In this document: piece by piece, positions 2,055 through 32,522 of the stretch | Position numbering within the stretch: the first letter of the stretch is position 1 | Layout of the letters: each line of letters opens with the position of its first letter | Source: a virus | Virus record (IMG/VR): IMGVR_UViG_3300045988_083604 | Location: 1-64,000 of that record | Strand: one strand, 5' to 3' | DNA length: 64,000 nucleotides | Notes under the pieces: model-generated | The model's input: only the letters and a program-made list of their open reading frames with translations | The model's database searches: none | Told to the model about the DNA's origin: nothing | Translations under genes and position numbers: made by a program

Positions 2055-2421
2055 ATATGATCCTGTGATATATCCAAGATTATTATATGTTTGTAAGAAC
2101 TGTACACTAAAGGATTTACGAGATCGTTTTACTACAAGAAAGGGATTAGAAATATCTGACGAATAGGATCCATCAAGTGAAACATTTACATTCTACGCTA
2201 TTGATAAGAAAACTAAAGACTGGGTAATTCTAGTTTGTATAGGTTACAAATCTGATAGTATGGAAGATTATATATCTGATATCTGTCATGAAGCAGAACA
2301 TGTGAAACAATCAATCTTTGAAGATATAGGATTACCTACAACAGTAGATTCACAAGAAGCAGATGCCTATTTAGTAGGATGGGCTGCAAAATGTATATAC
2401 ACAACTTTTATAAAGAAATAA
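2020..2421 (+). CDS. small HExxH-motif protein (CHEAEHV) interrupted by one in-frame TAG at 2164..2166; 133 codons if TAG is read through
   Basis: Hand translation of the frame starting at 2020: open from ATG 2020/2023/2044 to TAA 2419 except for a single TAG; both halves are under 60 aa and so absent from the ORF track. Confidence 0.5.
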
Positions 2422-2422
2422 T

Positions 2423-3061
2423 ATGAAATTAGCATCACATAACAGTTTAAGTTTTGTAAAACCATATAGTTGGTGGGAGAAATTAATAAATTTTACATCA
2501 AAGTGCCAATCACTTGATATACAATCACAATATGCAAATGGAGTACGTTTATTTGACATGAGATTACGTAGAAAGTGGATTTCTTGTTGTTCGCATGACT
2601 ATGATGCAATAGCTGCTCACGGATTAATAGAATATAGAAGCATTGATGTTTCCAATACATTGTATTATCTTAACAGCAAATCAACAAAAGATGATCCTGT
2701 ATATATACAATTAAATCTTGAAAATCTTAAGTCTGACGGAGATAGAGATTATGTATGGTTTGAAGAATTATTTAAAGAATGCTCAGAGCGTTATCCAAAT
2801 CTAATATTCTGTGGAGGATATGCTAAACACCCATGGCGTAAGATCATAGATTGTGAAGATCCTTCTATATGTCAAAAGAATTGGGAATTTTTTAATTATA
2901 AAGATCAACCTACTACACGAAAAAAGATAAAGTGTTTCTTTTCAAATTTATTACACTTTTCCCCAAAATACTGGGCTAAAAAGAATAATCAAAAATATAA
3001 ATCTGATGGTACGTCTGCTGATTTCTTAATGTTAGATTTTGTACAATATGGGGACATTTGA
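2423..3061 (+). CDS. hypothetical protein; possible PLC-like phosphodiesterase fold
   Basis: ORF track; SHNS...GVRLFDMRLR resembles the catalytic region of the PI-PLC X domain; by eye only. Confidence 0.35.
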   Translation: MKLASHNSLSFVKPYSWWEKLINFTSKCQSLDIQSQYANGVRLFDMRLRRKWISCCSHDYDAIAAHGLIEYRSIDVSNTLYYLNSKSTKDDPVYIQLNLENLKSDGDRDYVWFEELFKECSERYPNLIFCGGYAKHPWRKIIDCEDPSICQKNWEFFNYKDQPTTRKKIKCFFSNLLHFSPKYWAKKNNQKYKSDGTSADFLMLDFVQYGDI

Positions 3062-3581
3062 TTTCTTAAAAGCTGTAAGTTTAAATGCTGTATTATATTA
3101 TGCAGATTACTTAAGTTTATATTATACTTCAATACCTGTAACAGATACGTGTAAATATTTTATAATTTATGGGACACCAGTGAATGCTGCATATATGGAT
3201 GGACATTCTCCTATATATGATGAAAATAATCAATATTATAAACAAGCATTAGACGAATTATATAACATTCAAGCTAAAACAGGTAGATCCGGTATGATTT
3301 CATTCTTACAAAATTTATGCAATGTATTTGCTAGAGGATGTGTTAATGGAGAACAAATGTTAGATTGTATATTATATTATAAATCAAAGCGTGAAAAGAA
3401 AGATGCTAGAGCCAAATATAAAAACTATGTATCTAATATACGATATGAGCTACAACAAGAAGAAGACGGCGAATTGTACACCGTAGAATGTACAAAATAT
3501 GTAAAACACAACGGTATCAAACCTAATTACGATGACTGCGAAAAAATTAATAGATTATTTAAAGGATCCTTAGATGATTAA
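3039..3581 (+). CDS. hypothetical protein, 180 aa
   Basis: ORF track; tightly packed in a co-oriented gene array. Confidence 0.6.
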   Translation: MYNMGTFDFLKAVSLNAVLYYADYLSLYYTSIPVTDTCKYFIIYGTPVNAAYMDGHSPIYDENNQYYKQALDELYNIQAKTGRSGMISFLQNLCNVFARGCVNGEQMLDCILYYKSKREKKDARAKYKNYVSNIRYELQQEEDGELYTVECTKYVKHNGIKPNYDDCEKINRLFKGSLDD

Positions 3582-5712: not shown

Positions 5713-6702
5713 CTTATTGGAGGGCAGTCGAAAGACTGTCTCTCCTTGCGTAATTAGTGTCACATTTGCCATTTACATAGAGAAATTCCTTCTTAATATA
5801 TAGCTTTTTACGAAACTTTATATAAATCCTGATTCAAACTTTAAATTCGGAATTATACATTCTGATGAGTTAACCGATGACGGTTGAGGTGAATACAACA
5901 CCAAGAACAGAAATAAATGTACAAGTATGTGTACGCTCACAAACATGCTTGATAAAGAGAGCTGGCAATACGGAAAGACGTATAAACTTGGTTAGTCATA
6001 TGGCCTGGTAAACCATATGCCGTCTTAATATAACTAAGGTTATATTGGTATGTAAGACGAAATGTTTTAACATCGCATTATATACATTGTATAGGTGTAC
6101 TGGAATGACATACCTGAGTCCAGTAGTCGGAATAGTTCCTGCAGATATTATTCTGTACTGATGTTATGTGTAATCGGGTGGTTACCGCACACTGATTACG
6201 ACGTTGTAGATGTACGACTACAATGTTTAATTAATTATGACAAGTCCTGAGCATGACTATAAACTGCTCATTTTTAATACATTTATGTTGTAATGTAGCC
6301 TTTGGCGGTTCCAAGCCCGCATGAGAAATACAGAGGACAACGAAACACACAGGTTTCACATCATAGTACACGTGATGTAAACGTATTGTATGTAAAAAGT
6401 ATCTAGTTCCTATCAGGCTTCTAAATGGAAAGGATATACATACAATACAGTGTACAATTCATAGTTAAATTATTAATTATGAAAGAAAGCCTGGTCATCC
6501 ACCGCAATGTCGAGAAGTGCGGTAGTAATAGAGCGACATCTGTTACGAACTATGTTCAACGGTCTACTTACGTTGTATGATAAGCATAGTTAGTACATTT
6601 TACCAGATGTACAATTCCAACTAAATTGGTCAATAGTTGTATGTCGCATAATCCCTGTAGGTGAGTAGACCACTTGCACTGCAGCTACAGGGATGTTTTA
6701 AA
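5713..6702 (+). ncRNA. ORF-free, helix-rich region of about 1 kb; candidate large structured RNA of unknown class
   Basis: No ORF of 60 aa or more on either strand. Many local hairpins (catatgg/ccatatg, accg-atga-cggt, ttgtag/ctacaa) and a long-range 7-bp pairing gtagtcg(6122-6128)/cgactac(6214-6220). Confidence 0.35.
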
Positions 6703-6780
6703 TGCCTCTTAGCTCAAAAGCCAGAGCCTCACAGATGTAATATCATGCGAGAGATGATGGTTCGAATCCATCAGAGGTAA
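6703..6780 (+). ncRNA. tRNA-like element with canonical acceptor, D and T arms but no 7-nt anticodon loop
   Basis: Acceptor tgcctct/agaggta (U1-A72); D arm gctc-aaaagcca-gagc; T arm gatgg-ttcgaat-ccatc. The 27 nt in between fold only into an irregular extended stem. Confidence 0.4.
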
Positions 6781-7213: not shown

Positions 7214-7414
7214 ATGAGTAAATTAATGCTATCTTTCACAGCCACATTTTGTGCTACAATGTGTGCTGTTCTACTATATGTAGAAAGAGATAATTTAAGT
7301 ACTAGCACAGACGAAAATATTATTTTGAGTATACTTTTTGCGGTAATTGCCATATTGTCATTCTTGATATTCTATAAAGAGTGCAATGATTGGTTTCACT
7401 TAAATGAAGAATAA
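7214..7414 (+). CDS. small membrane protein, 66 aa
   Basis: ORF track; two hydrophobic segments. Confidence 0.5.
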   Translation: MSKLMLSFTATFCATMCAVLLYVERDNLSTSTDENIILSILFAVIAILSFLIFYKECNDWFHLNEE

Positions 7415-7715
7415 GGTTATGAAAATGGAAACAAAATATCTTATTGTAGATACGATAGGACTTGTTCTTATTTTCTGTCTCTCACTAACTTCAGCAATTG
7501 CACAATGCTCAACTGAGCGTGATAACAAGCGATTAACTGAAATAATTGAAAGACAGAAAAAGCTTATTGAAAAATATAAGCAGTTTGAAGATATATCTGT
7601 ACAAATCTACATTAACCAAGTAGATAGTACAGGTGATACATTCGATAGCTCGGACAATGGAGTGTTATTTTGGAACACTCTATCGGAAATCGATAGTCTA
7701 AGAAACTTAAAGTAG
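7404..7715 (+). CDS. small membrane-anchored protein, 103 aa; terminates at TAG
   Basis: ORF track; N-terminal hydrophobic segment; overlaps the previous ORF. Confidence 0.5.
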   Translation: MKNKVMKMETKYLIVDTIGLVLIFCLSLTSAIAQCSTERDNKRLTEIIERQKKLIEKYKQFEDISVQIYINQVDSTGDTFDSSDNGVLFWNTLSEIDSLRNLK

Positions 7716-7921: not shown

Positions 7922-7992
7922 TGGACTATGGTGTAATGGGAACACAACAGTTTTTGGCGCTGTTGTTCCAGGTTCGAATCCTGGTAGTCCAA
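7922..7992 (+). tRNA. tRNA-Gln(UUG)
   Basis: Hand-folded cloverleaf: acceptor tggacta/tagtcca (U1-A72), D arm gtgt-aatggga-acac, anticodon arm acagt-ttTTGgc-gctgt, T arm ccagg-ttcgaat-cctgg; no encoded CCA. Confidence 0.85.
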
Positions 7993-8062
7993 CTAATAAC
8001 GATATAGGCAGAGTCAGCAATGCTATGCAATTTGTTTTTAATTGTTTATATTTATTAATTTT

Positions 8063-8736: not shown

Positions 8737-9062
8737 CTACAAGCTATTTGTAAGTCCAAGACATCAGCTTATTAACTTCTTTATGTGACAGATAAAGAAG
8801 ATTTTAAATTCTAAACAATAGTATTGCAATACGTTTAGACAAGGACGCACGTAGTAGGTGAAGAGGAGTAGCTAATCCAAATTACCGAAACCTTGTAAAA
8901 TCCCCGTGCACGCATACAGAGTGATTCACTGTGAAGAATTTCGTAATTTCCTTAGGTCTCTATTGATGTTGTGAATAATAGTAGCAATGGTTAAAATGAG
9001 AATATTGCCTGTAGAAACAGGAATTTGGGCATTAAATTAAATCCTAGCCCGGGGTAAATAAA

Positions 9063-12146: not shown

Positions 12147-12255
12147 CATAGTAAAATAACTACGGTATTCTTTCCGTAACGGTCCGAAGTCCGTGTAAAT
12201 ATTGACGGCTATAGAGTTAATTAACATATACTTAACGTTTTAAAATTTATCAAAA

Positions 12256-14467: not shown

Positions 14468-14664
14468 GAACATTATCATAACAACATATTTAGTATATTA
14501 AACAGATATATCGAATCATATTACTACGAAGATTAAGAGTAGCTAACTTATGATTCAAAGTATATGCTGAGACAAACATTCTGTTTAATCTACCTAAGTA
14601 TATAGAATCTGATCAATTCTATATACTACAAAATGAAATCGTTTGAGTATGAGTTAATTATGTA

Positions 14665-14693
14665 GGACGAGGGTTCGAATCCCTCCACGTCCA
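14665..14693 (+). ncRNA. acceptor/T-arm minihelix (tRNA top-half mimic)
   Basis: ggacg-aggg-ttcgaat-ccct-cca-cgtcc-a; no matching distal 5' acceptor strand found upstream. Confidence 0.35.
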
Positions 14694-14857
14694 CTCTTGT
14701 TTATATATAAGGGCGTGACCGGTTTTGACTGCATAAGGAAGTAAATACGAGATTTCAGAAATCGATAAATCAGAACAATAACATTGTTGACTATACTCAC
14801 GTAGCGTGAGTATGAGTCCTGACAATTCCTTGAGTCAGTTGGAAAAATAGGATGGTT

Positions 14858-14925: not shown

Positions 14926-15351
14926 ATGAGAGGATATAGAGCTATGATTAAAGACAGACTCGTACCAACCTGGGAGTTAGCATTATTATGGTGTAAAGCT
15001 AAAACTCGTTGGGTTGAGACGGTATATAACTGTCATATAAAAAGATTAGGAAACAATAAACAGTTGAAAAAAGAAACTGTATTATTTGTAACAGGACATA
15101 AAAACAAAAATGGAATTTATTGTAATTTCATGAGTACTGTTACAAATGATGATTGTTTCAGAGCTAACAATCCAGAAGAATGGGCATATTGGAATAGTGT
15201 GTATAATTGGGTGAAATGGTTTTCATCTAATATGCAGATAATGAAAGATGATTTAATTACAAAATCTAAATCTGAATTTCAATCAATTTTTTATGTGAAT
15301 GATGAATTATATAGATTTTTAATACGAAATATTCATTTGTACGCATCATGA
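14926..15351 (+). CDS. hypothetical protein, about 141 aa
   Basis: ORF track 14884..15351, trimmed to ATG 14926 because the 5' part overlaps the tRNA-like element. Confidence 0.55.
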   Translation: MRGYRAMIKDRLVPTWELALLWCKAKTRWVETVYNCHIKRLGNNKQLKKETVLFVTGHKNKNGIYCNFMSTVTNDDCFRANNPEEWAYWNSVYNWVKWFSSNMQIMKDDLITKSKSEFQSIFYVNDELYRFLIRNIHLYAS

Positions 15352-15782
15352 AACAAAAAGGATTTCCAGAAACTCCGGGATTGTACATAGCTCAACGCGA
15401 GTACGATGTAGTCTTATTAAAGATTACCGGAATGTATCCAACTTTACAGGTTGGAAAATGTGTGTATCTATCAGCATTGATAGGTGGTAATACAATCAAA
15501 GAAGCTCCAAAAGAAATTGTTGACAATATTATATTGTTCAGCAAAAACTGGGAGTTTTCAAAGATTGAAAGTATTGATACGCGTGTATTTCCCAAAACAG
15601 CGTTTAAAGTCAATGGAAGCTTGGATCTTGGTACAGACGAAAAACTATCTTTACGTAATACGTATTATCGTTTTGTACAAAGTGGAGTTTCATCGAGTAA
15701 AATTATTCGTGCATTAATGTACGAATACCATGTAACTATGGAGCAAATAATATCATTAATAAATGAATTTGATGCATGTTAG
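15348..15782 (+). CDS. hypothetical protein, 144 aa; terminates at TAG
   Basis: ORF track; ATGA overlap upstream. Confidence 0.6.
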   Translation: MKQKGFPETPGLYIAQREYDVVLLKITGMYPTLQVGKCVYLSALIGGNTIKEAPKEIVDNIILFSKNWEFSKIESIDTRVFPKTAFKVNGSLDLGTDEKLSLRNTYYRFVQSGVSSSKIIRALMYEYHVTMEQIISLINEFDAC

Positions 15783-21400: not shown

Positions 21401-22009
21401 ATGGACAATAACAATGTAAATATCAATGTAAGATTAGTGGAAGACAATCGAGTAAATATCAGTAGTTTTGGTTCGCTTTATGGTAAGCGAATCTTTAAAG
21501 CAGTCAAACTCTCATGTGATCTTGACTTCCAAAAGCGTCTTCGTGACGCAAATGAGAATAATGGACTTGTAACCAACCGTGCTCCGCTGCGTTATAAGAT
21601 CGTACCTATTGACATAGTAGGTCTTGATCTTGACAAGGACGTTGACGGAACTAATGTAATTGTGATCAATAAGGGTCGCAAGGACGAGGCTGGTGAGTCT
21701 ATTGAGGTTCGTTGTCCAATTGACAACGAGAAGTTCACAAAGGATGTTACAACTGAGACTGTAACAGACGCGTTGAACAAGAAGGATTTTATTACTACAT
21801 ACTTCGCAAACGCAAAGAAGCTTGCTGAGGCACTGAATCCTGCAAATGCAACAGAGATGAACCGTATCGATGCTCTCATTCGAGATCTTGAGAAGCAGCG
21901 TAAGATGATCCAGGATACATTCGATAAGAATATTTCTGGTGTAAACGATTACTACCGTCAGCTCGATCAGAAGAAGAGCGAGGTACATGTAAATGTAACA
22001 GTTGACTAA
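21401..22009 (+). CDS. hypothetical protein, 202 aa, GC-richer codon usage
   Basis: ORF track; antisense shadow ORFs; stop overlaps the next start. Confidence 0.65.
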   Translation: MDNNNVNINVRLVEDNRVNISSFGSLYGKRIFKAVKLSCDLDFQKRLRDANENNGLVTNRAPLRYKIVPIDIVGLDLDKDVDGTNVIVINKGRKDEAGESIEVRCPIDNEKFTKDVTTETVTDALNKKDFITTYFANAKKLAEALNPANATEMNRIDALIRDLEKQRKMIQDTFDKNISGVNDYYRQLDQKKSEVHVNVTVD

Positions 22010-22536
22010 TGAAAAAGATTAGCCTTAAGAGCAAACTACAAATACAAATTCTTTTTTTGGACCCGACGATCAAACGGAACCTGATTGACGAGTCTAAAAA
22101 AGAATTATATAGTCGAATTACTATTAATGATGACGGATCTATCACTTTTGGAAAGACAGGGTGTCTTTGGTGGAATCGTCTTCTTGGTGATGAAATGACT
22201 ATATCTTTTGCAGATTTTGCAATTAAAACTGTAGCAGCTCTTGCAGGACAGGAACGTAATATCAACGATGTGATACTCAAAGGCTTGAGTGAGGAGGTAA
22301 TACGTAATGCTGTAATGCAAGATAAATACGACATGGTAGTCGATCGTTTATTTGATGCCGCAAGGTATGGTGTTAAAGGTCCTCTAAATACTGAGGGCTT
22401 CTCTGTAAGTGATAAAATAGATAAACACATTAAAATTGAAACCAAAGATGGTGTACGAGTAGCACGCTTGCCGGGATCAGGCGATCCCTTGTGCGAAATC
22501 AGAGTTGGTGTCAAGGGTGTTGATTTTTATGAATAG
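22009..22536 (+). CDS. hypothetical protein, 175 aa; terminates at TAG
   Basis: ORF track; a long antisense shadow ORF 21876..22514 was rejected. Confidence 0.6.
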   Translation: MKKISLKSKLQIQILFLDPTIKRNLIDESKKELYSRITINDDGSITFGKTGCLWWNRLLGDEMTISFADFAIKTVAALAGQERNINDVILKGLSEEVIRNAVMQDKYDMVVDRLFDAARYGVKGPLNTEGFSVSDKIDKHIKIETKDGVRVARLPGSGDPLCEIRVGVKGVDFYE

Positions 22537-28588: not shown

Positions 28589-29038
28589 ATGAAGAAGTAT
28601 ACTTTTAAACTCGATAACACCAAGAAGATTAACAATGAGTCAACTAACAACTATTCTAAGATTATTGATGATATTATATCTGCTAATATAATTAAGAATA
28701 ACCCTTATTTCGATAGTATTCCAAGTACAACGAAGAGTAAGACGATTAACATTGATATTCATCTCGGTAAGAAGTCTCCGAAGTATGATAAGAAGAGTTT
28801 TGATTATGGTGACATTTTCGATGCTCTTAAGACTATTTACAATTTGAAGAATGAGAAGCCTATGTACGACTTTAAGTTGTATGATGGTACTCCTGTGAAG
28901 ATATTCTCTGATGAGATTCAGATTGGTTATGATCTGATCCCACTTACTGGATTTACTCGTGAGTACTACAATTCTCTTTCTGAGAGTACGCGTAAGCATA
29001 TTATTGATATTACTATTGATATTCAGCGAGCAGCGTAA
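28589..29038 (+). CDS. hypothetical protein, 149 aa
   Basis: ORF track; antisense shadow ORF 28640..29059. Confidence 0.55.
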   Translation: MKKYTFKLDNTKKINNESTNNYSKIIDDIISANIIKNNPYFDSIPSTTKSKTINIDIHLGKKSPKYDKKSFDYGDIFDALKTIYNLKNEKPMYDFKLYDGTPVKIFSDEIQIGYDLIPLTGFTREYYNSLSESTRKHIIDITIDIQRAA

Positions 29039-29079
29039 TTGTAAATAGTGAACTAACAAATAAATAGATGCATTGACAC

Positions 29080-30652
29080 ATGAGCGGTTTTATATTACCT
29101 ACACAACCAATTCCAGCAGTTTCAACAAATCCTAAATTTTTAATTTTATATGGTCGTCCTAAAGCAGGAAAGACTAGTGCATTAGCACAGCTTCCTAATA
29201 ATCTAATTATAGATTTGGAAGGAGGATCACAATTTATAGACGCAATGGCAGTACAAGCCAGAAGTGTTGGAGATTTAGGAGAAATTGCACAAGCAATCAG
29301 AGCTAAAAACTCTGAAACAAAACATAATTTTTATAAGCATATAACAATAGACAATGCTACTCGATTAGAGGAGATGTGTTTACCGTATGCAAAGACACTC
29401 TGTAATAATGGAGCTTTAAATAGAAATATTTATAGAAAATTCCGTGAATTGCTGGAACCTCTTTCATTTGTCATAATATATAACAATAAGAAAGAAAATC
29501 AGCAGCATTTATGAAACAAGAAACTTTAAAAAAGTATATTGGTAAAACATGGGGTGTTTTAACTTGTTTAGGAATCGATCATGAAGATTACGATAAAGAC
29601 AAATAGAGAAAAAGAACATATTTTAAAGTAAAATGTTCTAGATGTGGTTCTGAATCTGTAGTTAGAGCTGATCGTTTCTTTGGAACATATGTTCCAAAAT
29701 CATGTACACATTGTGTAAATGATTTACAAGTTGAAACAGCAAATAAAAAGTATCCTAAAAATAGAAGATTATTAAATTCAAGAATATCAAAATACACACA
29801 TATAAGCAACAGAAAAGGAAAAACAGTAAAATCTTACTTATCAAAAATTGAAGCAGAAAAATTGCTTACTTCTAAGTGTTTTTATTGTGGAAAAGAAAAT
29901 GCAATGGGAATAGACAGAATAGATTCATCTAAAGATTATACTTTAGATAATTGTGTTTCGTGTTGCGGAATGTGTAATATTATGAAGAATAAATTTGATA
30001 TTGATGAATGGTTTTCTAAAATAGGAGAAATTTATAGAAATCATGTTGATAGATGTTCAACGACTATCTCGAAAGAGAGTACATCACAAGTTAATGGTGA
30101 TGGAAGTGCGGAACTTCTGACTGCCGCATAGGTAAAAGAAGATGATATAGTCTATTCTGCATAGTGATATGCAGCAGTTCATAAGAGAACGTATATAGTG
30201 TTACGAACTATATAGAATATAAAGATATGCAAACACCAATGGGAAAGAACTACAAAGGAGACGATGTACGTACTTTACCAAATGGTTCTGGATATATGTA
30301 TCTAAGACAAGCTGTACGCAAAGTTTTAGATATGTTTAAGAGTCTTTGTGATGAATTTATTTTAATTGGACACGTGAAAGATGTTCAAATAGAACAAAAC
30401 GGAGAAGAGCTTAATCAGATGGCATTGGATCTTGTTGGAAAACTAGGATCTATTGTATGTGGTGAAGCAGATGCTGTGGGATATGTTTATAGAAAAGGTA
30501 ACGAAACTCACATAAGCTTTAAAGGCGGTGATGGTACCATTAAAGAAGCCAGAGCACCTCATCTTAGAGGCAACGATATTGTTATCGCAACTGGTAATGA
30601 AGATGGAACTATTACTACTTATTGGGACAGAATTTTTAAATCAGAAAACTAA
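29080..30652 (+). CDS. Sak4-like AAA_24 ATPase (RecA-like), split gene: join(29080..29401,30225..30652) gives 249 aa
   Basis: Exon 1 has Walker A YGRPKAGKTS, DLEGGS and Walker B ITIDNAT. Exon 2 continues the family (ILIGHVKD...). The proposed splice keeps the frame (322+428=750 nt) and gives the junction AKTL-Y-MQTPMGK. Confidence 0.7.
29402..30224 (+). mobile_element. group I intron (about 823 nt) carrying an HNH homing endonuclease gene
   Basis: 5' exon ends in U and the intron ends in G. P1 cucU/Ggag with a U-G wobble (29398-29401 with 29410-29413). R element gttcaacgactatc (30055-30068) and S element aagatgatatagtc (30139-30152) give P7 gacta/tagtc. P9-like hairpin ctgcata/tatgcag. Confidence 0.75.
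29511..30131 (+). CDS. intron-encoded HNH endonuclease, 206 codons with one in-frame TAG at 29604..29606
   Basis: Hand translation: the frame is open from ATG 29511 to TAG-free stop TAG? no, to stop at 30129..30131, except for one internal TAG. C-terminal CFYCGK...IDRID...NCVSCCGMCNIMKNK HNH core; the ORF track shows only 29862..30131. Confidence 0.65.
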
Positions 30653-30660
30653 TAGAAGAT

Positions 30661-31251
30661 ATGTTTAGTACTAAAACAGCTGTATTTGACAGTTCAAACA
30701 AATATATGAACGCCGGTATTAATGACAACGTAACTCTTAAAGAAGTAAATGTCTTGAAATCTCCAAACGGGCGTGATTACCTTGAGATAATATTTGAGGA
30801 TGCTGATGGAGCAATAGCCTCTCTTACAGAGTGGAAAAATGAGAAGAATGCGTGGATTAAAACTGATGAAGAACGTCAAAATCGTGATAATCAGCAATTC
30901 GGACGAATGCTTCAAATTCTCAAATGTTATTTTGAAACTATTGAAGATGTAGAACTTAACACATTTGTCGATATGATAACATGGGTTAAGAGTAAACTTG
31001 ATACTGTAATAAGTGGAAAGAAGCTTCTACGTCTTAAAACAACATACGATAACAAAGGTTTTATTCGTGTATCAACTTATGGTATATTTGTAGAACCAAT
31101 GGATGTTGAAGAAACTCAGATAGTATTAACAGGTCGTGATAAGACAGTACGACCAGAAATAAAAGTAGATACTGAAATACCTACTAATCTGCTTGGTAAT
31201 ACCACTCCAGACAATACTATTGAAGCAGTAAAGCGCGATCTACCGTTTTAA
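30661..31251 (+). CDS. hypothetical protein, possibly ssDNA-binding
   Basis: ORF track; position between the recombinase-like ATPase and the primase; acidic C-terminal tail; weak inference. Confidence 0.35.
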   Translation: MFSTKTAVFDSSNKYMNAGINDNVTLKEVNVLKSPNGRDYLEIIFEDADGAIASLTEWKNEKNAWIKTDEERQNRDNQQFGRMLQILKCYFETIEDVELNTFVDMITWVKSKLDTVISGKKLLRLKTTYDNKGFIRVSTYGIFVEPMDVEETQIVLTGRDKTVRPEIKVDTEIPTNLLGNTTPDNTIEAVKRDLPF

Positions 31252-31538
31252 TGTAGATCTGGTGGAGCGTTGACTCCAGTCAACTAAGAATGGTAAATAT
31301 GAACTATGGGAGGATCGCAACCTCCTACCATTCCACATGAAGCTCTATAAAGTCGACGTGAGGAGCAACGTAACACACAGGTTTTCTAATCGATGTAAAT
31401 CTAGCCCTGTTTCCAAGCGTATCTTGGATGTGTTCTGACACATGTGTGTATGTCAGGGAGAATGGCACAATTGCAAAGGGTGCATAGAAAGTTCGATTCT
31501 TTCCATTCTACATATATTTAGAGCTAAAAGCCAATAAT
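31252..31538 (+). ncRNA. ORF-free structured region ending in a T-arm-like hairpin, upstream of the primase gene
   Basis: Hairpins gaatggta/taccattc enclosing ggagg-atcgcaa-cctcc; ccaag-cgtat-cttgg; ctgaca/tgtcag; T-arm-like gaaag-ttcgatt-ctttc followed by cattcta. Confidence 0.3.
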
Positions 31539-32522
31539 ATGTATAGTACAAAAAAAGCTACAATTGATACATCTTTACGAGATATCATAGAGATGTTAGA
31601 CGATTACGATATCTACTCATATTATATCGGATCTTTTAAAATAAATAAACTTATGAATAGTCCTCTACGCAATGATGATAGAAATCCATCATTTGCAGTA
31701 TTTGTAGGACGAGAAGGTCGTTTGTTTTTTAAAGATCATGGCAGTGGAGTAGGTGGAAACGCTATAACGTTTGTAAAAACTATTTGTAATATACAATCAA
31801 AAGAAGAATTAGAAAAAGAACTTCTAAGGATTTTGCGAAAACAGAATCCTAATAAAGTAAAAAGGGTTAATATAAAGAAATACGAATCTGCTCACAATAC
31901 TGTAATTGGTATTGCTAGACAACCGTTTACTAATACTGATTTACAGTATTGGGGGCAGTTTCATATTTCTAAATCTACTCTTGACAAATACCGTGTTTTT
32001 AGTATAAAATATTTTCTTTGTAATGGAACCGTCAGAGGAGTCTACAAAGAAACCTGTCCTATGTATGCGTATAAAGTGTTCGATAGATTTAAAATTTATA
32101 GACCTTTAGCTTCCAAGTATACTAAATGGCGTTCTAATCTGACAAATTACGACGTTCAGGGGCTTGCTGAAATACCTCAGGGAGGAGGCGATCTTCTCAT
32201 CATTACAAAATCTTTAAAGGATGTAATGACTCTATATGAGATGGGATACAATGCTATTGCTGCATCTAGTGAAACAACATTCATTCCGGATGAGATATTG
32301 AATAAACTTCAAACAAAATGGAAGACAATTCTCATTTTATATGATAGAGATGTAACAGGAATGAAAAAAGCTAGAGATTATAGTAGAAAATATCATTTTG
32401 ATGCATTTTTTATTAATAAGAGATTTAAAGCAAAAGATATTTCAGACGCGGTAAAAAATAATTCTTATAATGATGTAAAACAATGGTTAAATAAAGAATT
32501 ACGACGTTATGACAACCTCTAA
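31539..32522 (+). CDS. DNA primase (DnaG/TOPRIM type)
   Basis: Degenerate zinc-binding region SPLRNDDRNPSFAVF; TOPRIM-like LLIITKSLKDVMTL and LYDRDVTG. Confidence 0.7.
   Translation: MYSTKKATIDTSLRDIIEMLDDYDIYSYYIGSFKINKLMNSPLRNDDRNPSFAVFVGREGRLFFKDHGSGVGGNAITFVKTICNIQSKEELEKELLRILRKQNPNKVKRVNIKKYESAHNTVIGIARQPFTNTDLQYWGQFHISKSTLDKYRVFSIKYFLCNGTVRGVYKETCPMYAYKVFDRFKIYRPLASKYTKWRSNLTNYDVQGLAEIPQGGGDLLIITKSLKDVMTLYEMGYNAIAASSETTFIPDEILNKLQTKWKTILILYDRDVTGMKKARDYSRKYHFDAFFINKRFKAKDISDAVKNNSYNDVKQWLNKELRRYDNL

What the first reader, a model, noticed from the sequence alone, without database searches (positions are those of the whole stretch)
29080..30652. Sak4-like ATPase gene split by a group I intron whose HNH endonuclease carries an in-frame TAG
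ORFs 29080..29514 and 30227..30652 are the N- and C-terminal halves of one AAA_24/Sak4-type ATPase.

The sequence between them has these group I intron hallmarks:
- The exon ends in U, paired as U-G in a P1 hairpin (cucU / Ggag).
- R element gttcaacgactatc.
- S element aagatgatatagtc, forming P7.
- A terminal G at 30224.

Splicing 29401 to 30225 restores a 249-aa frame.

The intron ORF (29511..30131) encodes an HNH endonuclease. Its N-terminal third is connected to the HNH core only through TAG 29604. The homing endonuclease would then be made in full only after the code switch.

The ORF start ATG also overlaps the TGA that ends the unspliced exon-1 frame.
Basis: partly seen in the sequence, partly recalled or inferred. 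Interest (0 to 1): 0.75.

Follow-up and report, generated by a model that had tools for sequence, protein, structure and literature searches.

The report
Intron-split phage ATPase; TAG-gated homing nuclease

Summary

- **Intron.** Window 29402-30224 is an 823-nt group I (IA2-type) intron. It splits a Sak4-like/AAA_24 ATPase gene (exons 29080-29401 and 30225-30652).
- **Junction.** Intron-less alleles (85-98% amino-acid identity) align without gaps across it.
- **RNA structure.** Across 27 related introns, 95% of proposed base pairs hold and 50 of 76 pairs show compensatory change.
- **Rfam.** The window scores only sub-threshold half-hits, because the ORF sits in P6. An ORF-less relative passes the curated cut-off.
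- **Nuclease ORF.** It starts at ATG 29511 and encodes a PacI-like HNH nuclease with TAG at codon 32 (29604-29606).
- **TAG is decoded.** Relatives have Gln there. A second allele shares the TAG. Codons 33-117, which have no ATG/GTG/TTG start, show pN/pS 0.13. So this is not a pseudogene.
- **Host phage.** It is a TAG-recoded Crassvirales (Suoliviridae-like) phage. Late genes are full of TAG, and no other forward-strand early ORF needs TAG read-through.

- The N-terminal piece is 15% of the protein, not a third.
- The ORF's own "stop" (30129-30131) is also TAG, so the late product probably ends at TGA 30165-30167.
- Equally recoded relatives lack the internal TAG, so adaptive timing is unproven.

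Both the intron site (ATP_43b) and the "recoded intron endonuclease is made late" idea are already published.

The parts
29080..29401 (+). Exon 1 of the Sak4-like/AAA_24 ATPase (codons 1-107 plus the first base of Tyr108), with Walker A motif GRPKAGKT
   Evidence: Pfam PF13479 profile positions 5-86 and PHROG 124. Alignment to intron-less homologues.
29402..30224 (+). Group I intron, 823 nt, IA2-type, with its ORF looped out of P6
   Evidence: Exact junction. Covariation over 27 homologous introns. Rfam half-hits. An ORF-less relative scores 53.0 bits against a gathering score of 50.
30225..30652 (+). Exon 2 of the ATPase (last two bases of Tyr108 through the stop codon)
   Evidence: Pfam PF13479 profile positions 96-187. 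L087 alignment resumes at 30225.
29398..29413 (+). P1: CUCU|GU paired with AUGGAG. The splice-site pair is U29401-G29410.
   Evidence: The U-G pair is present in 24 of 26 sequences. The neighbouring pairs covary with the exon sequence (CUCU/GGAG, CUGU/GCAG, UUGU/GCAA).
29417..29432 (+). P2 hairpin with GAAA loop
   Evidence: All 6 pairs show compensatory change; 98.8% of cells paired.
29440..29445 (+). P3 5' strand (UUCCGU), pairing with 30108-30113 (GCGGAA)
   Evidence: 100% of cells paired; 4 of 6 pairs compensatory.
29449..29505 (+). P4 (29449-29454 with 29500-29505) enclosing P5 (29460-29465 with 29490-29495)
   Evidence: 98% and 97% of cells paired. P5 has 5 of 6 pairs compensatory.
29506..29512 (+). 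P6 5' strand (CAUUUAU), pairing with 30049-30055. It contains the A and U of the nuclease start codon.
   Evidence: Weaker support: the outermost C-G pair is invariant, the other six pairs are 68% paired. The start-codon sequestration is inferred.
29511..30131 (+). Intron ORF for a PacI-like HNH (beta-beta-alpha-metal) homing endonuclease, 206 codons to the first terminal TAG
   Evidence: PHROG 1035/3118/2214. Profile match to PacI 3ldy, E = 3e-7. About 205-aa homologues with 100% coverage.
29604..29606 (+). In-frame TAG, codon 32 of the nuclease ORF
   Evidence: The column is mostly Gln in homologues. L003 has CAA; L001 and L002 have TAG.
29512..29514 (+). TGA ending the exon-1 frame after it has run 37 codons into the intron. 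It overlaps the nuclease ATG (ATGA).
30055..30068 (+). P7 is 30062-30066 with 30148-30152.
   Evidence: All 5 P7 pairs are invariant in 27 sequences. This matches the Rfam consensus UUCAaAGACUA.
30067..30102 (+). P7.1 (30067-30078) and P7.2 (30082-30102) joined by GUA (30079-30081), the IA2 hallmark
   Evidence: 99% and 100% of cells paired; 3 of 4 and 5 of 6 pairs compensatory. The hallmark is defined in PMC3428280.
30114..30141 (+). P8 (30114-30118 with 30137-30141)
   Evidence: 100% of cells paired; 4 of 5 pairs compensatory.
30141..30153 (+).
   Evidence: Invariant GAUAUAGUC.
30157..30214 (+). P9 (30157-30174), P9.1 (30177-30190) and P9.2 (30192-30214)
   Evidence: 100%, 100% and 93% of cells paired. 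P9.2 has 8 of 8 pairs compensatory.
30129..30167 (+). Terminal TAG (30129-30131), a 10-codon extension, TAG (30162-30164), then TGA (30165-30167). This is the likely late-phase end of the nuclease (218 aa).
   Evidence: Database protein P0121 (218 aa) is this read-through product in L001.

Best explanation
**What it is.** This is a mobile group I intron of subgroup IA2 (29402-30224). It sits after the first base of a conserved Tyr codon in the Sak4-like/AAA_24 ATPase gene of a TAG-recoded crAss-like (Suoliviridae-like) phage. This gene is probably the one called ATP_43b in the crAss literature.

**Shown in silico.**
- Removing the intron restores the 249-aa ATPase exactly.
- The RNA has a conserved, covarying P1-P9.2 fold with an invariant P7.
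- A PacI-like HNH nuclease ORF is looped out of P6. It runs about 75 nt into the ribozyme core (P6', P7, P7.1, P7.2, P3', part of P8).
- Codon 32 of that ORF is TAG. It must be decoded, as Gln, for anything beyond a 31-residue peptide to be made.
- The ORF downstream of the TAG is under purifying selection.

**Inferred mechanism.**
1. Early in infection UAG terminates. The replication-module transcript therefore yields spliced ATPase mRNA. Ribosomes that enter the nuclease ORF fall off at UAG 29604, about 440 nt before the 3' half of the ribozyme core.
2. Late in infection a phage suppressor tRNA, not in this window, reads UAG as Gln. Full-length nuclease is then made (206 aa, or 218 aa if the terminal UAG is also read through to UGA 30165-30167).
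3. The nuclease can cut intron-less alleles in co-infecting phages and so spread the intron.

Whether the TAG was selected for this timing, or is simply a late-synonymous Gln codon that drifted in, is open.
For: **Junction.**

**Fold.**
- 95% of cells paired, 50 of 76 pairs compensatory, 0 of 500 shuffles as high, and slid controls at 39-52%.
- P7.1 and P7.2 are joined by GUA, the IA2 criterion of PMC3428280.
- Rfam half-hits score 33.3 bits (E = 1.7e-6) and 16.2 bits.
- The ORF-less relative in the cr118_1 DNA polymerase scores 53.0 bits against a gathering score of 50.
- The 3' core is 79-87% identical to annotated split or intron-containing genes of cr53_1, cr118_1, Salmonella phage Vi06 and Klebsiella phage Pylas.

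**Nuclease.**

**TAG is decoded.**
- Gln column, CAA in L003.
- Same TAG in L001 and L002.
- Window versus L001: dN/dS 0.14 overall.
- Codons 33-117 have no ATG/GTG/TTG, show 14 synonymous against 7 non-synonymous changes, pN/pS 0.13, Fisher p = 2e-6.

**Code switch.**
- Reverse-strand ORFs of 1854 and 5462 codons exist only if TAG is sense (32 and 75 TAGs).
- The 38 forward-strand ORFs need no TAG read-through, and three of them end in TAG.
- In a 95%-identical late-gene orthologue, 7 of 11 sites where one phage has TAG and the other a sense codon are Gln.

**Precedent.**
- T4 I-TevI: when its regulatory hairpin is mutated, ribosomes occupy core intron sequences and splicing suffers. The cited study is titled 'delayed translation ... 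is required for efficient splicing' (PMC3073962).
- Recoded intron endonuclease in TGA-recoded Agate phages (bioRxiv 10.1101/2021.08.26.457843).
Against: - No expression or splicing data are available.
- No CUA suppressor tRNA lies in the 64-kb window, so the timing of suppression is assumed from the literature on recoded phages.
- Relatives L091-L093 are equally TAG-recoded, yet their HNH ORF (read in L004, L006 and L007, the same IMG/VR contigs) has no in-frame TAG. The internal TAG is therefore lineage-specific (two independent alleles) and not required.
- The ORF's natural stop is also TAG. This is awkward for a design built purely around 'TAG = late sense codon'.
- In this clade the exon-1 frame runs 37 codons into the intron. 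Ribosomes therefore already invade the 5' half of the ribozyme early, which weakens a simple 'keep ribosomes out' rationale.
- The window itself does not reach Rfam's curated threshold.
Confidence: 0.8

Rival explanations
1. The intron and nuclease are as described, but the internal TAG has no regulatory role. In a phage whose late translation reads TAG as Gln, a CAA/CAG-to-TAG change in a gene that is only useful late is effectively synonymous. It drifted to fixation in one sub-lineage.
For: - Relatives L091-L093 are TAG-recoded, yet their HNH ORF (read in L004, L006, L007, the same contigs) has no in-frame TAG. L003 has CAA at this codon.
- More distant relatives L111 and L113 also have a real Gln codon there.
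- Internal TAGs occur sporadically at other positions in other lineages: L078 has three, and L037, L046, L071, L074 and L075 have one each.
- There is only one TAG in 206 codons, fewer than the roughly 3 expected at late-gene density.
Against: - No other forward-strand early-block ORF in the window needs TAG read-through. The nuclease is therefore the one gene in that block free of the early-gene constraint.
- Borges et al. found intron endonucleases significantly enriched for recoded stops in another phage clade.
- Drift and function are not mutually exclusive. The mechanistic consequence (no full-length protein without suppression) holds either way.
Confidence: 0.45
2. The nuclease gene is a decaying pseudogene. 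On this view TAG 29604 is a nonsense mutation in a homing endonuclease that is no longer needed once the intron is fixed.
For: - Homing endonuclease genes commonly degenerate after fixation (general knowledge).
- The ORF's natural stop is TAG, as expected for a gene that evolved under the standard code.
- An ORF-less relative of the intron exists in cr118_1.
Against: - There is exactly one interruption, no frameshift, and the other two frames carry 16 and 28 stops.
- The same TAG is kept in a second allele that differs at 22 synonymous but only 14 non-synonymous positions: dN/dS 0.14 overall and 0.13 in the start-less codons 33-117.
- The position is Gln in relatives, which is what this phage's TAG appears to encode.
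- Intron-less alleles at 94% nucleotide identity still circulate, so homing targets exist.
Confidence: 0.07
3. It is not an intron. On this view a free-standing nuclease gene has split the ATPase into two separately translated polypeptides that assemble (a 'fractured gene'), or the intervening element is an intein.
For: - Gene callers annotate two AAA_24 fragments plus a nuclease.
- Exon 2 happens to contain an ATG at 30227.
Against: - Non-coding flanks of about 110 and 95 nt form a covarying group I fold with invariant P7, a U-G pair at the 5' splice site and a terminal G.
- P1 covaries with the exon sequence.
- The break falls inside a Tyr codon.
- The insert is in a different frame, and its frame is closed by stops, so it cannot be an intein.
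- The family reaches the Rfam threshold when ORF-less.
Confidence: 0.02

Closest known systems
[quoted passage not shown] Examples are PhiI/W31 with I-TslI (Bonocora and Shub 2004, PMC529087, as cited in PMC3428280), Pf-WMP3 with I-PfoP3I, and the homologous insertion in Salmonella phage Vi06.
   Same: - Same subgroup hallmark: P7.1 and P7.2 joined by GUA.
- The ORF is looped from P6 and extends into P7/P7.1/P7.2.
- The 3' core is 79% identical at DNA level to the Vi06 insertion.
- The Vi06 nuclease shares the DR.D..K.Y...N motif and the core-encoded tail TTISKESTS.ANADGSA.
   Different: - The host gene is a Sak4-like ATPase, not a DNA polymerase.
- The host is a Bacteroidota-type crAss-like phage with TAG recoding.
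- The nuclease has an extra N-terminal CxxC...CxxC module and an in-frame TAG.
- The exon-1 frame is not closed at the junction.
[quoted passage not shown] 2021, PMC7886860)
   Same: - Same phage order. The closest annotated genome is cr130_1, Suoliviridae (83% ATPase identity).
- Probably the same host gene.
- Same combination of introns with alternative coding. That paper shows intron ORFs carrying TGA codons that must be suppressed.
   Different: - That work identified introns through their endonuclease domains. It gave no junction, RNA structure or selection analysis for this site.
- The equation of ATP_43b with this AAA_24 gene is my inference.
Recoded group I intron endonuclease in TGA-recoded 'Agate' phages (Borges et al., bioRxiv 10.1101/2021.08.26.457843)
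   Same: An intron in an early gene whose endonuclease ORF carries in-frame recoded stops. [quoted passage not shown]
   Different: - A different phage clade and a different codon (TGA to Trp, against TAG to Gln here).
- There the enrichment was statistical across a gene family. Here it is a single codon in one sub-lineage.
T4 td intron / I-TevI delayed translation (Gibb and Edgell 2010, as reviewed in PMC3073962)
   Same: - The nuclease ORF overlaps core ribozyme sequence.
- Mutating the hairpin that regulates I-TevI translation gives a pronounced splicing defect from ribosomes occupying core intron sequences. The cited study is titled 'delayed translation ... is required for efficient splicing'.
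   Different: - The T4 control described in the review is an RNA hairpin that sequesters the ribosome-binding site. Here the proposed gate is a stop codon whose meaning changes.
- The nuclease families differ (GIY-YIG against HNH).
PacI restriction endonuclease (PDB 3ldy/3m7k)
   Same: It is the best solved-structure match to the nuclease profile (E = 3e-7, residues 65-162). It shares CxxC...GxDRxDS..Y..N...C.iCN.
   Different: PacI is a stand-alone restriction enzyme of 142 residues. The relationship is remote, and the single-sequence search gives only E = 0.39.

Membership tests
Group I intron (subgroup IA2) | 5' exon ends in U, paired as U-G at the end of P1 | tested here: met
   U29401-G29410. 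The U-G pair is present in 24 of 26 related introns, and the flanking P1 pairs covary with the exon.
Group I intron (subgroup IA2) | Intron ends in G (omega G), and excision restores the host reading frame | tested here: met
   G30224. The spliced product is 249 aa and is collinear with intron-less homologues at protein and DNA level.
Group I intron (subgroup IA2) | Conserved core P3-P8 with the P3/P7 pseudoknot, supported by covariation | tested here: met
   76 pairs, 95% of cells paired, 50 pairs compensatory, 0 of 500 shuffles as high. P7 is invariant.
Group I intron (subgroup IA2) | P7.1 and P7.2 between P7 and P3', linked by G-U-A (criterion as given in PMC3428280) | tested here: met
   P7.1 at 30067-30078, GUA at 30079-30081, P7.2 at 30082-30102. 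Both helices covary.
Group I intron (subgroup IA2) | Rfam RF00028 covariance model at or above the gathering score (50 bits) | tested here: inconclusive
   The window gives two half-hits of 33.3 and 16.2 bits because about 540 nt of ORF sit in P6. The ORF-less family member in cr118_1 scores 53.0 bits under the permissive filters but was not listed in the gathering-mode run.
Group I intron (subgroup IA2) | Guanosine-dependent self-splicing | not testable with these tools
   This needs in vitro transcription and splicing, or RNA-seq.
HNH (beta-beta-alpha-metal) homing endonuclease | Sequence membership in an HNH/Endo VII-type family | tested here: met
   PHROG 1035 'endonuclease VII' at 4e-17, plus PHROGs 3118, 2214 and 2118 'HNH endonuclease'. 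The profile matches PacI at 3e-7 and weaker HNH chains.
HNH (beta-beta-alpha-metal) homing endonuclease | Match to a curated Pfam or NCBIfam HNH model; canonical catalytic His of the HNH motif | tested here: not met
   No Pfam or NCBIfam HNH hit. The motif reads GIDRIDS...N...CN, with Arg where canonical HNH has His, and PacI also reads DR at that position. It is best filed as a PacI-like variant of the fold.
HNH (beta-beta-alpha-metal) homing endonuclease | Cleaves or nicks the intron-less allele near the insertion site | not testable with these tools
   Candidate target from L087...GCAAAGACCTTAT|ATATGCAAAGTCC....
Sak4-like / AAA_24 phage ATPase | Full-length match to PF13479 / PHROG 124 with a Walker A motif | tested here: met
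   The two halves cover profile positions 5-86 and 96-187 of 195. GRPKAGKT is present. Annotated homologues are named 'RecA protein' or 'Sak4-like ssDNA annealing protein'.
Stop-codon-recoded phage (TAG to Gln, late genes) | Many in-frame TAGs in late or structural genes and none in early genes | tested here: met
   Reverse-strand ORFs of 638-5462 codons carry 10-75 TAGs each. The 38 forward-strand ORFs need no read-through, and 3 of them end in TAG.
Stop-codon-recoded phage (TAG to Gln, late genes) | Phage-encoded suppressor tRNA with anticodon CUA | tested here: not met
   ARAGORN (with and without introns) and Rfam find only tRNA-Gln(UUG) and an odd tRNA-like element in the window. The window covers about 64 kb of a genome of about 100 kb, so the tRNA may lie outside it.
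Stop-codon-recoded phage (TAG to Gln, late genes) | TAG aligns with Gln in orthologues | tested here: met
   7 of 11 TAG/sense discordant sites are Gln in a 95%-identical late-gene orthologue. The nuclease codon 32 column is mostly Gln. The sample is small.

The most novel reading that the evidence does not exclude
In this sub-clade the nuclease may be expressed by ribosomes that read in from the host gene. The evidence for that:
- The usual stop codon at the exon-intron junction has been lost. 15 other lineages with the intron at the same site have T|AA or T|GA there.
- The exon-1 frame stays open for 37 codons (42 in the L003-L007 lineage, despite a 15-nt indel).
- That frame ends in a TGA overlapping the nuclease ATG (ATGA), and the ATG itself lies in P6.

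On this reading nuclease synthesis is coupled to translation of unspliced pre-mRNA. The TAG at codon 32 is then a second, code-dependent gate. It stops those ribosomes before they reach the 3' ribozyme core until the late code switch. This would be a two-tier control not described for any intron.
Probability: 0.2. Interest if true: 0.6.

Novelty: new member of a known kind. Interest (0 to 1): 0.4.

Why it matters
**What the case offers.** It is a well-resolved instance of two selfish or regulatory layers meeting: a mobile ribozyme and a virus-controlled change of the genetic code. Here the junction, the RNA structure, the nuclease family and the evidence that the stop codon is decoded can all be documented from sequence.

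**What it makes testable.** Does a phage's code switch time the expression of the parasites that live inside its own early genes?

**Practical use.**
- Gene callers split this ATPase into two 'genes' and truncate or mistranslate the nuclease.
- The same intron site, and a second site in the Walker A motif, recur across many crAss-like genomes.

**Limit.** Both the intron site and the timing idea are already published, so the gain is depth, not a new principle.

Tried and rejected
- **Rfam at gathering threshold.** The window gave no intron hit. Vi06, cr53_1, Pylas and cr118_1 also gave none. Only the permissive mode revealed the half-hits and the 53-bit ORF-less relative.
- **Suppressor tRNA.** ARAGORN default, intron mode and lowered threshold, plus Rfam on 31200-31560, all found nothing. 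The long-intron ARAGORN calls look spurious.
- **What TAG encodes.** A tblastn search of a late protein against GenBank phages gave hits of 37% identity or less, too divergent to use. Late-gene alignments to L109 and L091-L093 were not alignable (about 20% identity). Only L110 was usable.
- **TAG at codon 32 in more distant relatives.** I checked relatives whose database proteins had been translated with TAG = Gln (P0147, P0162). They have a real Gln codon at position 32 and TAG only at the natural stop.
- **More copies of the intron in the window.** Core-motif searches found none beyond chance.
- **Rejected readings.** Intein, fractured gene and pseudogene; see the rival explanations.
Full report
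**Setting.** The window has 32% G+C. It holds a forward-strand block (about 1,500-35,000) and a reverse-strand block (35,400-64,000). Under the standard code the reverse-strand block is fragmented. If TAG is read as sense it collapses into ORFs of 638, 721, 857, 1854 and 5462 codons carrying 10-75 TAGs each, while reading TGA as sense does not help. The 38 forward-strand ORFs (7,576 codons) need no read-through. Of these, 26 end in TAA, 9 in TGA and 3 in TAG. The neighbouring genes are a DnaB-like helicase, a primase-like gene and AAA ATPases. The closest annotated genome by ATPase identity (83%) is crAssphage cr130_1, Crassvirales, Suoliviridae. This is a TAG-recoded crAss-like phage with recoding confined to late genes, as described by Yutin et al. 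2021 (PMC7886860).

**The split gene.**
- ORF 29080-29514 matches Pfam AAA_24 profile positions 5-86. ORF 30227-30652 matches positions 96-187. Both match PHROG 124 'Sak4-like ssDNA annealing protein'.
- Joining 29401 to 30225 gives 249 residues.
- A search of 5.8 billion proteins returns thousands of uninterrupted 245-249-residue homologues. The best is 98% identical over 100% of the query.
- They align without a gap through ...CLPYAKTL-Y-MQTPMGKNYKGDD..., and the junction Tyr is invariant.
- At DNA level the intron-less allele L087 (94% identical) aligns to window 28885-29396 upstream and resumes exactly at 30225. The five remaining exon bases hold synonymous differences (ACA CTC T against ACC TTA T).
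- These are the bases that pair with the internal guide sequence in the intron-bearing allele.
- Identity to the intron-less allele dips next to the insertion site: 82% in the last stretch of exon 1 and 88% in the first 50 nt of exon 2, against 96-100% further into exon 2. This is usual around homing sites.

**The RNA.** Rfam gives nothing for the intron at its curated threshold. In a permissive scan of 29300-30350 the Intron_gpI model hits twice. It scores 33.3 bits (E = 1.7e-6) on 29996-30174 (P7 to P9) and 16.2 bits on 29391-29606 (P1 to P6). That is what is expected when about 540 nt of ORF are looped out of P6.

I collected 83 related loci through the nuclease plus others. I aligned the 5' and 3' non-ORF parts of 27 distinct introns. 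I then tested a hand-drawn structure:

| Helix | Window coordinates |
|---|---|
| P1 | 29398-29413 |
| P2 | 29417-29432 |
| P3 | 29440-29445 / 30108-30113 |
| P4 | 29449-29454 / 29500-29505 |
| P5 | 29460-29465 / 29490-29495 |
| P6 | 29506-29512 / 30049-30055 |
| P7 | 30062-30066 / 30148-30152 |
| P7.1 | 30067-30078 |
| P7.2 | 30082-30102 |
| P8 | 30114-30118 / 30137-30141 |
| P9 | 30157-30174 |
| P9.1 | 30177-30190 |
| P9.2 | 30192-30214 |

Results:
- 95.0% of 2,041 cells form standard pairs (shuffles 81%, slid controls 39-52%).
- 50 of 76 pairs show changes on both sides.
- None of 500 shuffles reaches any of the five measures.
- P7 is invariant. P6 is the weakest helix (its six inner pairs are 68% paired).

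Further support:
- P1 covaries with the exon (CUCU/GGAG, CUGU/GCAG, UUGU/GCAA).
- P7.1 and P7.2 joined by G-U-A is the criterion used to assign phage introns to subgroup IA2 (PMC3428280).
- The 3' core is 79-87% identical to split or intron-containing genes of cr53_1 and cr118_1 (DNA polymerase), Salmonella phage Vi06 (T7-like DNA polymerase) and Klebsiella phage Pylas ('HNH intron splits the protein').
- The ORF-less cr118_1 copy scores 53.0 bits on Intron_gpI against a gathering score of 50.

I regard the intron as established short of an RNA experiment.

**The nuclease.**
- The ORF from ATG 29511 has about 80 homologues. Most are about 205 residues long with 100% coverage, so the first 31 residues belong to the protein.
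- Pfam and NCBIfam do not recognise it.
- PHROGs do: endonuclease VII at 4e-17, plus several HNH families.
- A profile of 25 members matches the HNH restriction enzyme PacI at E = 3e-7. It shares C..C...G.DR.DS..Y..N...C.iCN.
- The Vi06 intron endonuclease shares this motif.
- The last about 25 residues (SSTTISKESTSQANGDGSGELLTAA) are almost invariant even at 35% overall identity. They are encoded by P7, P7.1, P7.2 and P3', so the constraint there is on the RNA.

**The TAG.** Codon 32 (29604-29606) is TAG. The evidence that it is decoded:
- The aligned column is mostly Gln.
- Some database proteins had evidently been translated with TAG = Gln, so I checked the DNA. L003 (88% identical) has CAA there. 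L004-L007 read Gln at that position and have no in-frame TAG. L001 and L002 (two contigs, identical in this ORF) have TAG at the same codon. L111, L112 and L113 also read Gln.
- After the TAG no ATG, GTG or TTG occurs in frame until TTG 29862 (codon 118).
- Window versus L001 gives 22 synonymous and 14 non-synonymous differences (dN/dS 0.14).
- For the start-less codons 33-117 the figures are 14 and 7 (pN/pS 0.13, Fisher p = 2e-6).
- The other two frames hold 16 and 28 stops.

So the region behind the TAG has been translated and kept functional since the two TAG-bearing alleles diverged. The only evident route is initiation at 29511 with read-through.

That TAG means Gln in this phage is supported, on a small sample, by a 95%-identical late-gene orthologue. 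There 7 of 11 sites that are TAG in one phage and a sense codon in the other are Gln.

- The upstream peptide is 31 of 206 residues, not a third.
- The ORF's terminator (30129-30131) is also TAG. Under the late code the protein runs on through QVKEDDIVYSAQ to TGA 30165-30167. This is the 218-residue form that one source already predicts for L001 (P0121).
- Relatives L091-L093 are just as TAG-recoded (17-39 TAGs in the adjacent late ORF). Their nuclease ORF, read in L004, L006 and L007 from the same contigs, has no in-frame TAG. The TAG is therefore a feature of one sub-lineage.
- No suppressor tRNA is in the window.

**An additional observation.**
- In 15 other lineages with the intron at the same Tyr codon, the first two intron bases complete a stop (T|AA or T|GA). 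A further 0-6 in-frame stops follow.
- This is the usual arrangement that keeps ribosomes out of group I introns (PMC3073962).
- In the window, in L001, and in L003, L004 and L006 the intron begins GT or AT. The exon-1 frame then stays open for 37 or 42 codons and ends in a TGA overlapping the nuclease ATG.
- A composition-matched shuffle gives about 2% for 37 stop-free codons.
- By my own reading of the gene calls and upstream sequences, which I did not run through a script, L112 and L111 close the frame earlier. The feature is therefore restricted to this sub-clade.
- It suggests termination-reinitiation coupling of the nuclease to host-gene translation on unspliced RNA. This is inference only.

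**Mechanism and rivals.** The best-supported account is a mobile IA2 intron whose nuclease can be completed only when UAG is suppressed. That the gate delays nuclease synthesis follows from the published model of late suppression, not from data here. The main rival is that the TAG is merely a late-synonymous Gln codon fixed by drift. This cannot be excluded, and I give it comparable weight as an explanation of origin. Pseudogene, fractured-gene and intein readings are contradicted by the selection and structure data.

**Novelty.**
- Yutin et al. list ATP_43b among the genes typically interrupted by group I introns in Delta-group crAss-like phages. They also show intron ORFs that need stop-codon suppression.
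- Borges et al. explicitly proposed that in-frame recoded stops keep an intron homing endonuclease in an early gene from being made until late.
- The T4 I-TevI work shows why delaying translation of a core-overlapping nuclease ORF matters for splicing.

The finding is therefore a well-documented new member of a known kind. The read-in arrangement is a possible variant worth testing.

Noticed in passing
window 29401-29514: The exon-1 reading frame is not closed at the exon-intron junction. It runs 37 codons through P1-P5 and ends in a TGA overlapping the nuclease ATG. 15 other lineages with the intron at the same site have a stop exactly at the junction. L003, L004 and L006 keep the open frame (42 codons) despite a 15-nt indel. 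The chance estimate for 37 stop-free codons is about 0.02.
   Followed up: partly
window 14634-14809 (+): Rfam permuted tmRNA (RF04321) hit above the curated threshold: 63 bits against 47, E = 8e-10. It lies in the early block of a stop-codon-recoded phage. I did not examine it further.
   Followed up: no
window 12148-12212 (+) and 6287-6341 (+); also 8979-9056 (+): Two sub-threshold matches to the type-P1 twister ribozyme: 47.4 bits (E = 2e-7) and 44.3 bits (E = 1.6e-6), against a gathering score of 67.2. There is also a sub-threshold RAGATH-12 match (43.1 bits against 75).
   Followed up: no
window 6703-6780 (+): A tRNA-like sequence (Rfam tRNA 39.7 bits) with a 14-nt anticodon loop. ARAGORN calls it only when allowed a 7-nt 'intron', as Asp(AUC). 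It is not a CUA suppressor. tRNA-Gln(UUG) lies nearby at 7922-7993.
   Followed up: partly
window 7404-7715, 15348-15782, 22009-22536 (+): Three early-block ORFs end in TAG. Under late-phase suppression they would be extended by 38, 5 and 31 codons to the next TAA.
   Followed up: partly
window 31360-31450 (+), intergenic, upstream of the gene at 31539: A non-coding stretch of about 90 nt is strongly conserved with cr130_1: CAACGTAACACACAGG...TAGCCCTGT.TC.AAGCGTATCTT.GATGTGTTC. In cr130_1 this intergenic region also carries tRNA-Gln and tRNA-Leu. Here there are only acceptor/T-arm-like fragments (about 31290-31338 and 31457-31511), and no tRNA is called.
   Followed up: partly
L032-L045, L047-L059, L071, L074, L075 (IMG/VR loci): A second insertion site for the same intron family lies in the Walker A motif of the same ATPase family (exon 2 begins ...GKPKAGKTT / KSGKTT). 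A third site lies in another gene (L038, L060-L073). The family is widespread in crAss-like genomes.
   Followed up: partly
L110 7146-9058 versus L109 8108-9058: In a phage almost identical to L109 around the ATPase, the DnaB-like helicase gene is called as three pieces with a 248-aa ORF in between. This suggests another mobile insertion that differs between near-identical genomes.
   Followed up: no
L078 (IMGVR_UViG_3300045988_100340) 2387-3067: A distant member of the nuclease family carries three internal in-frame TAGs, one of them close to the position of the window's TAG. L037, L046, L071, L074 and L075 carry one TAG each near the C-terminus.
   Followed up: no
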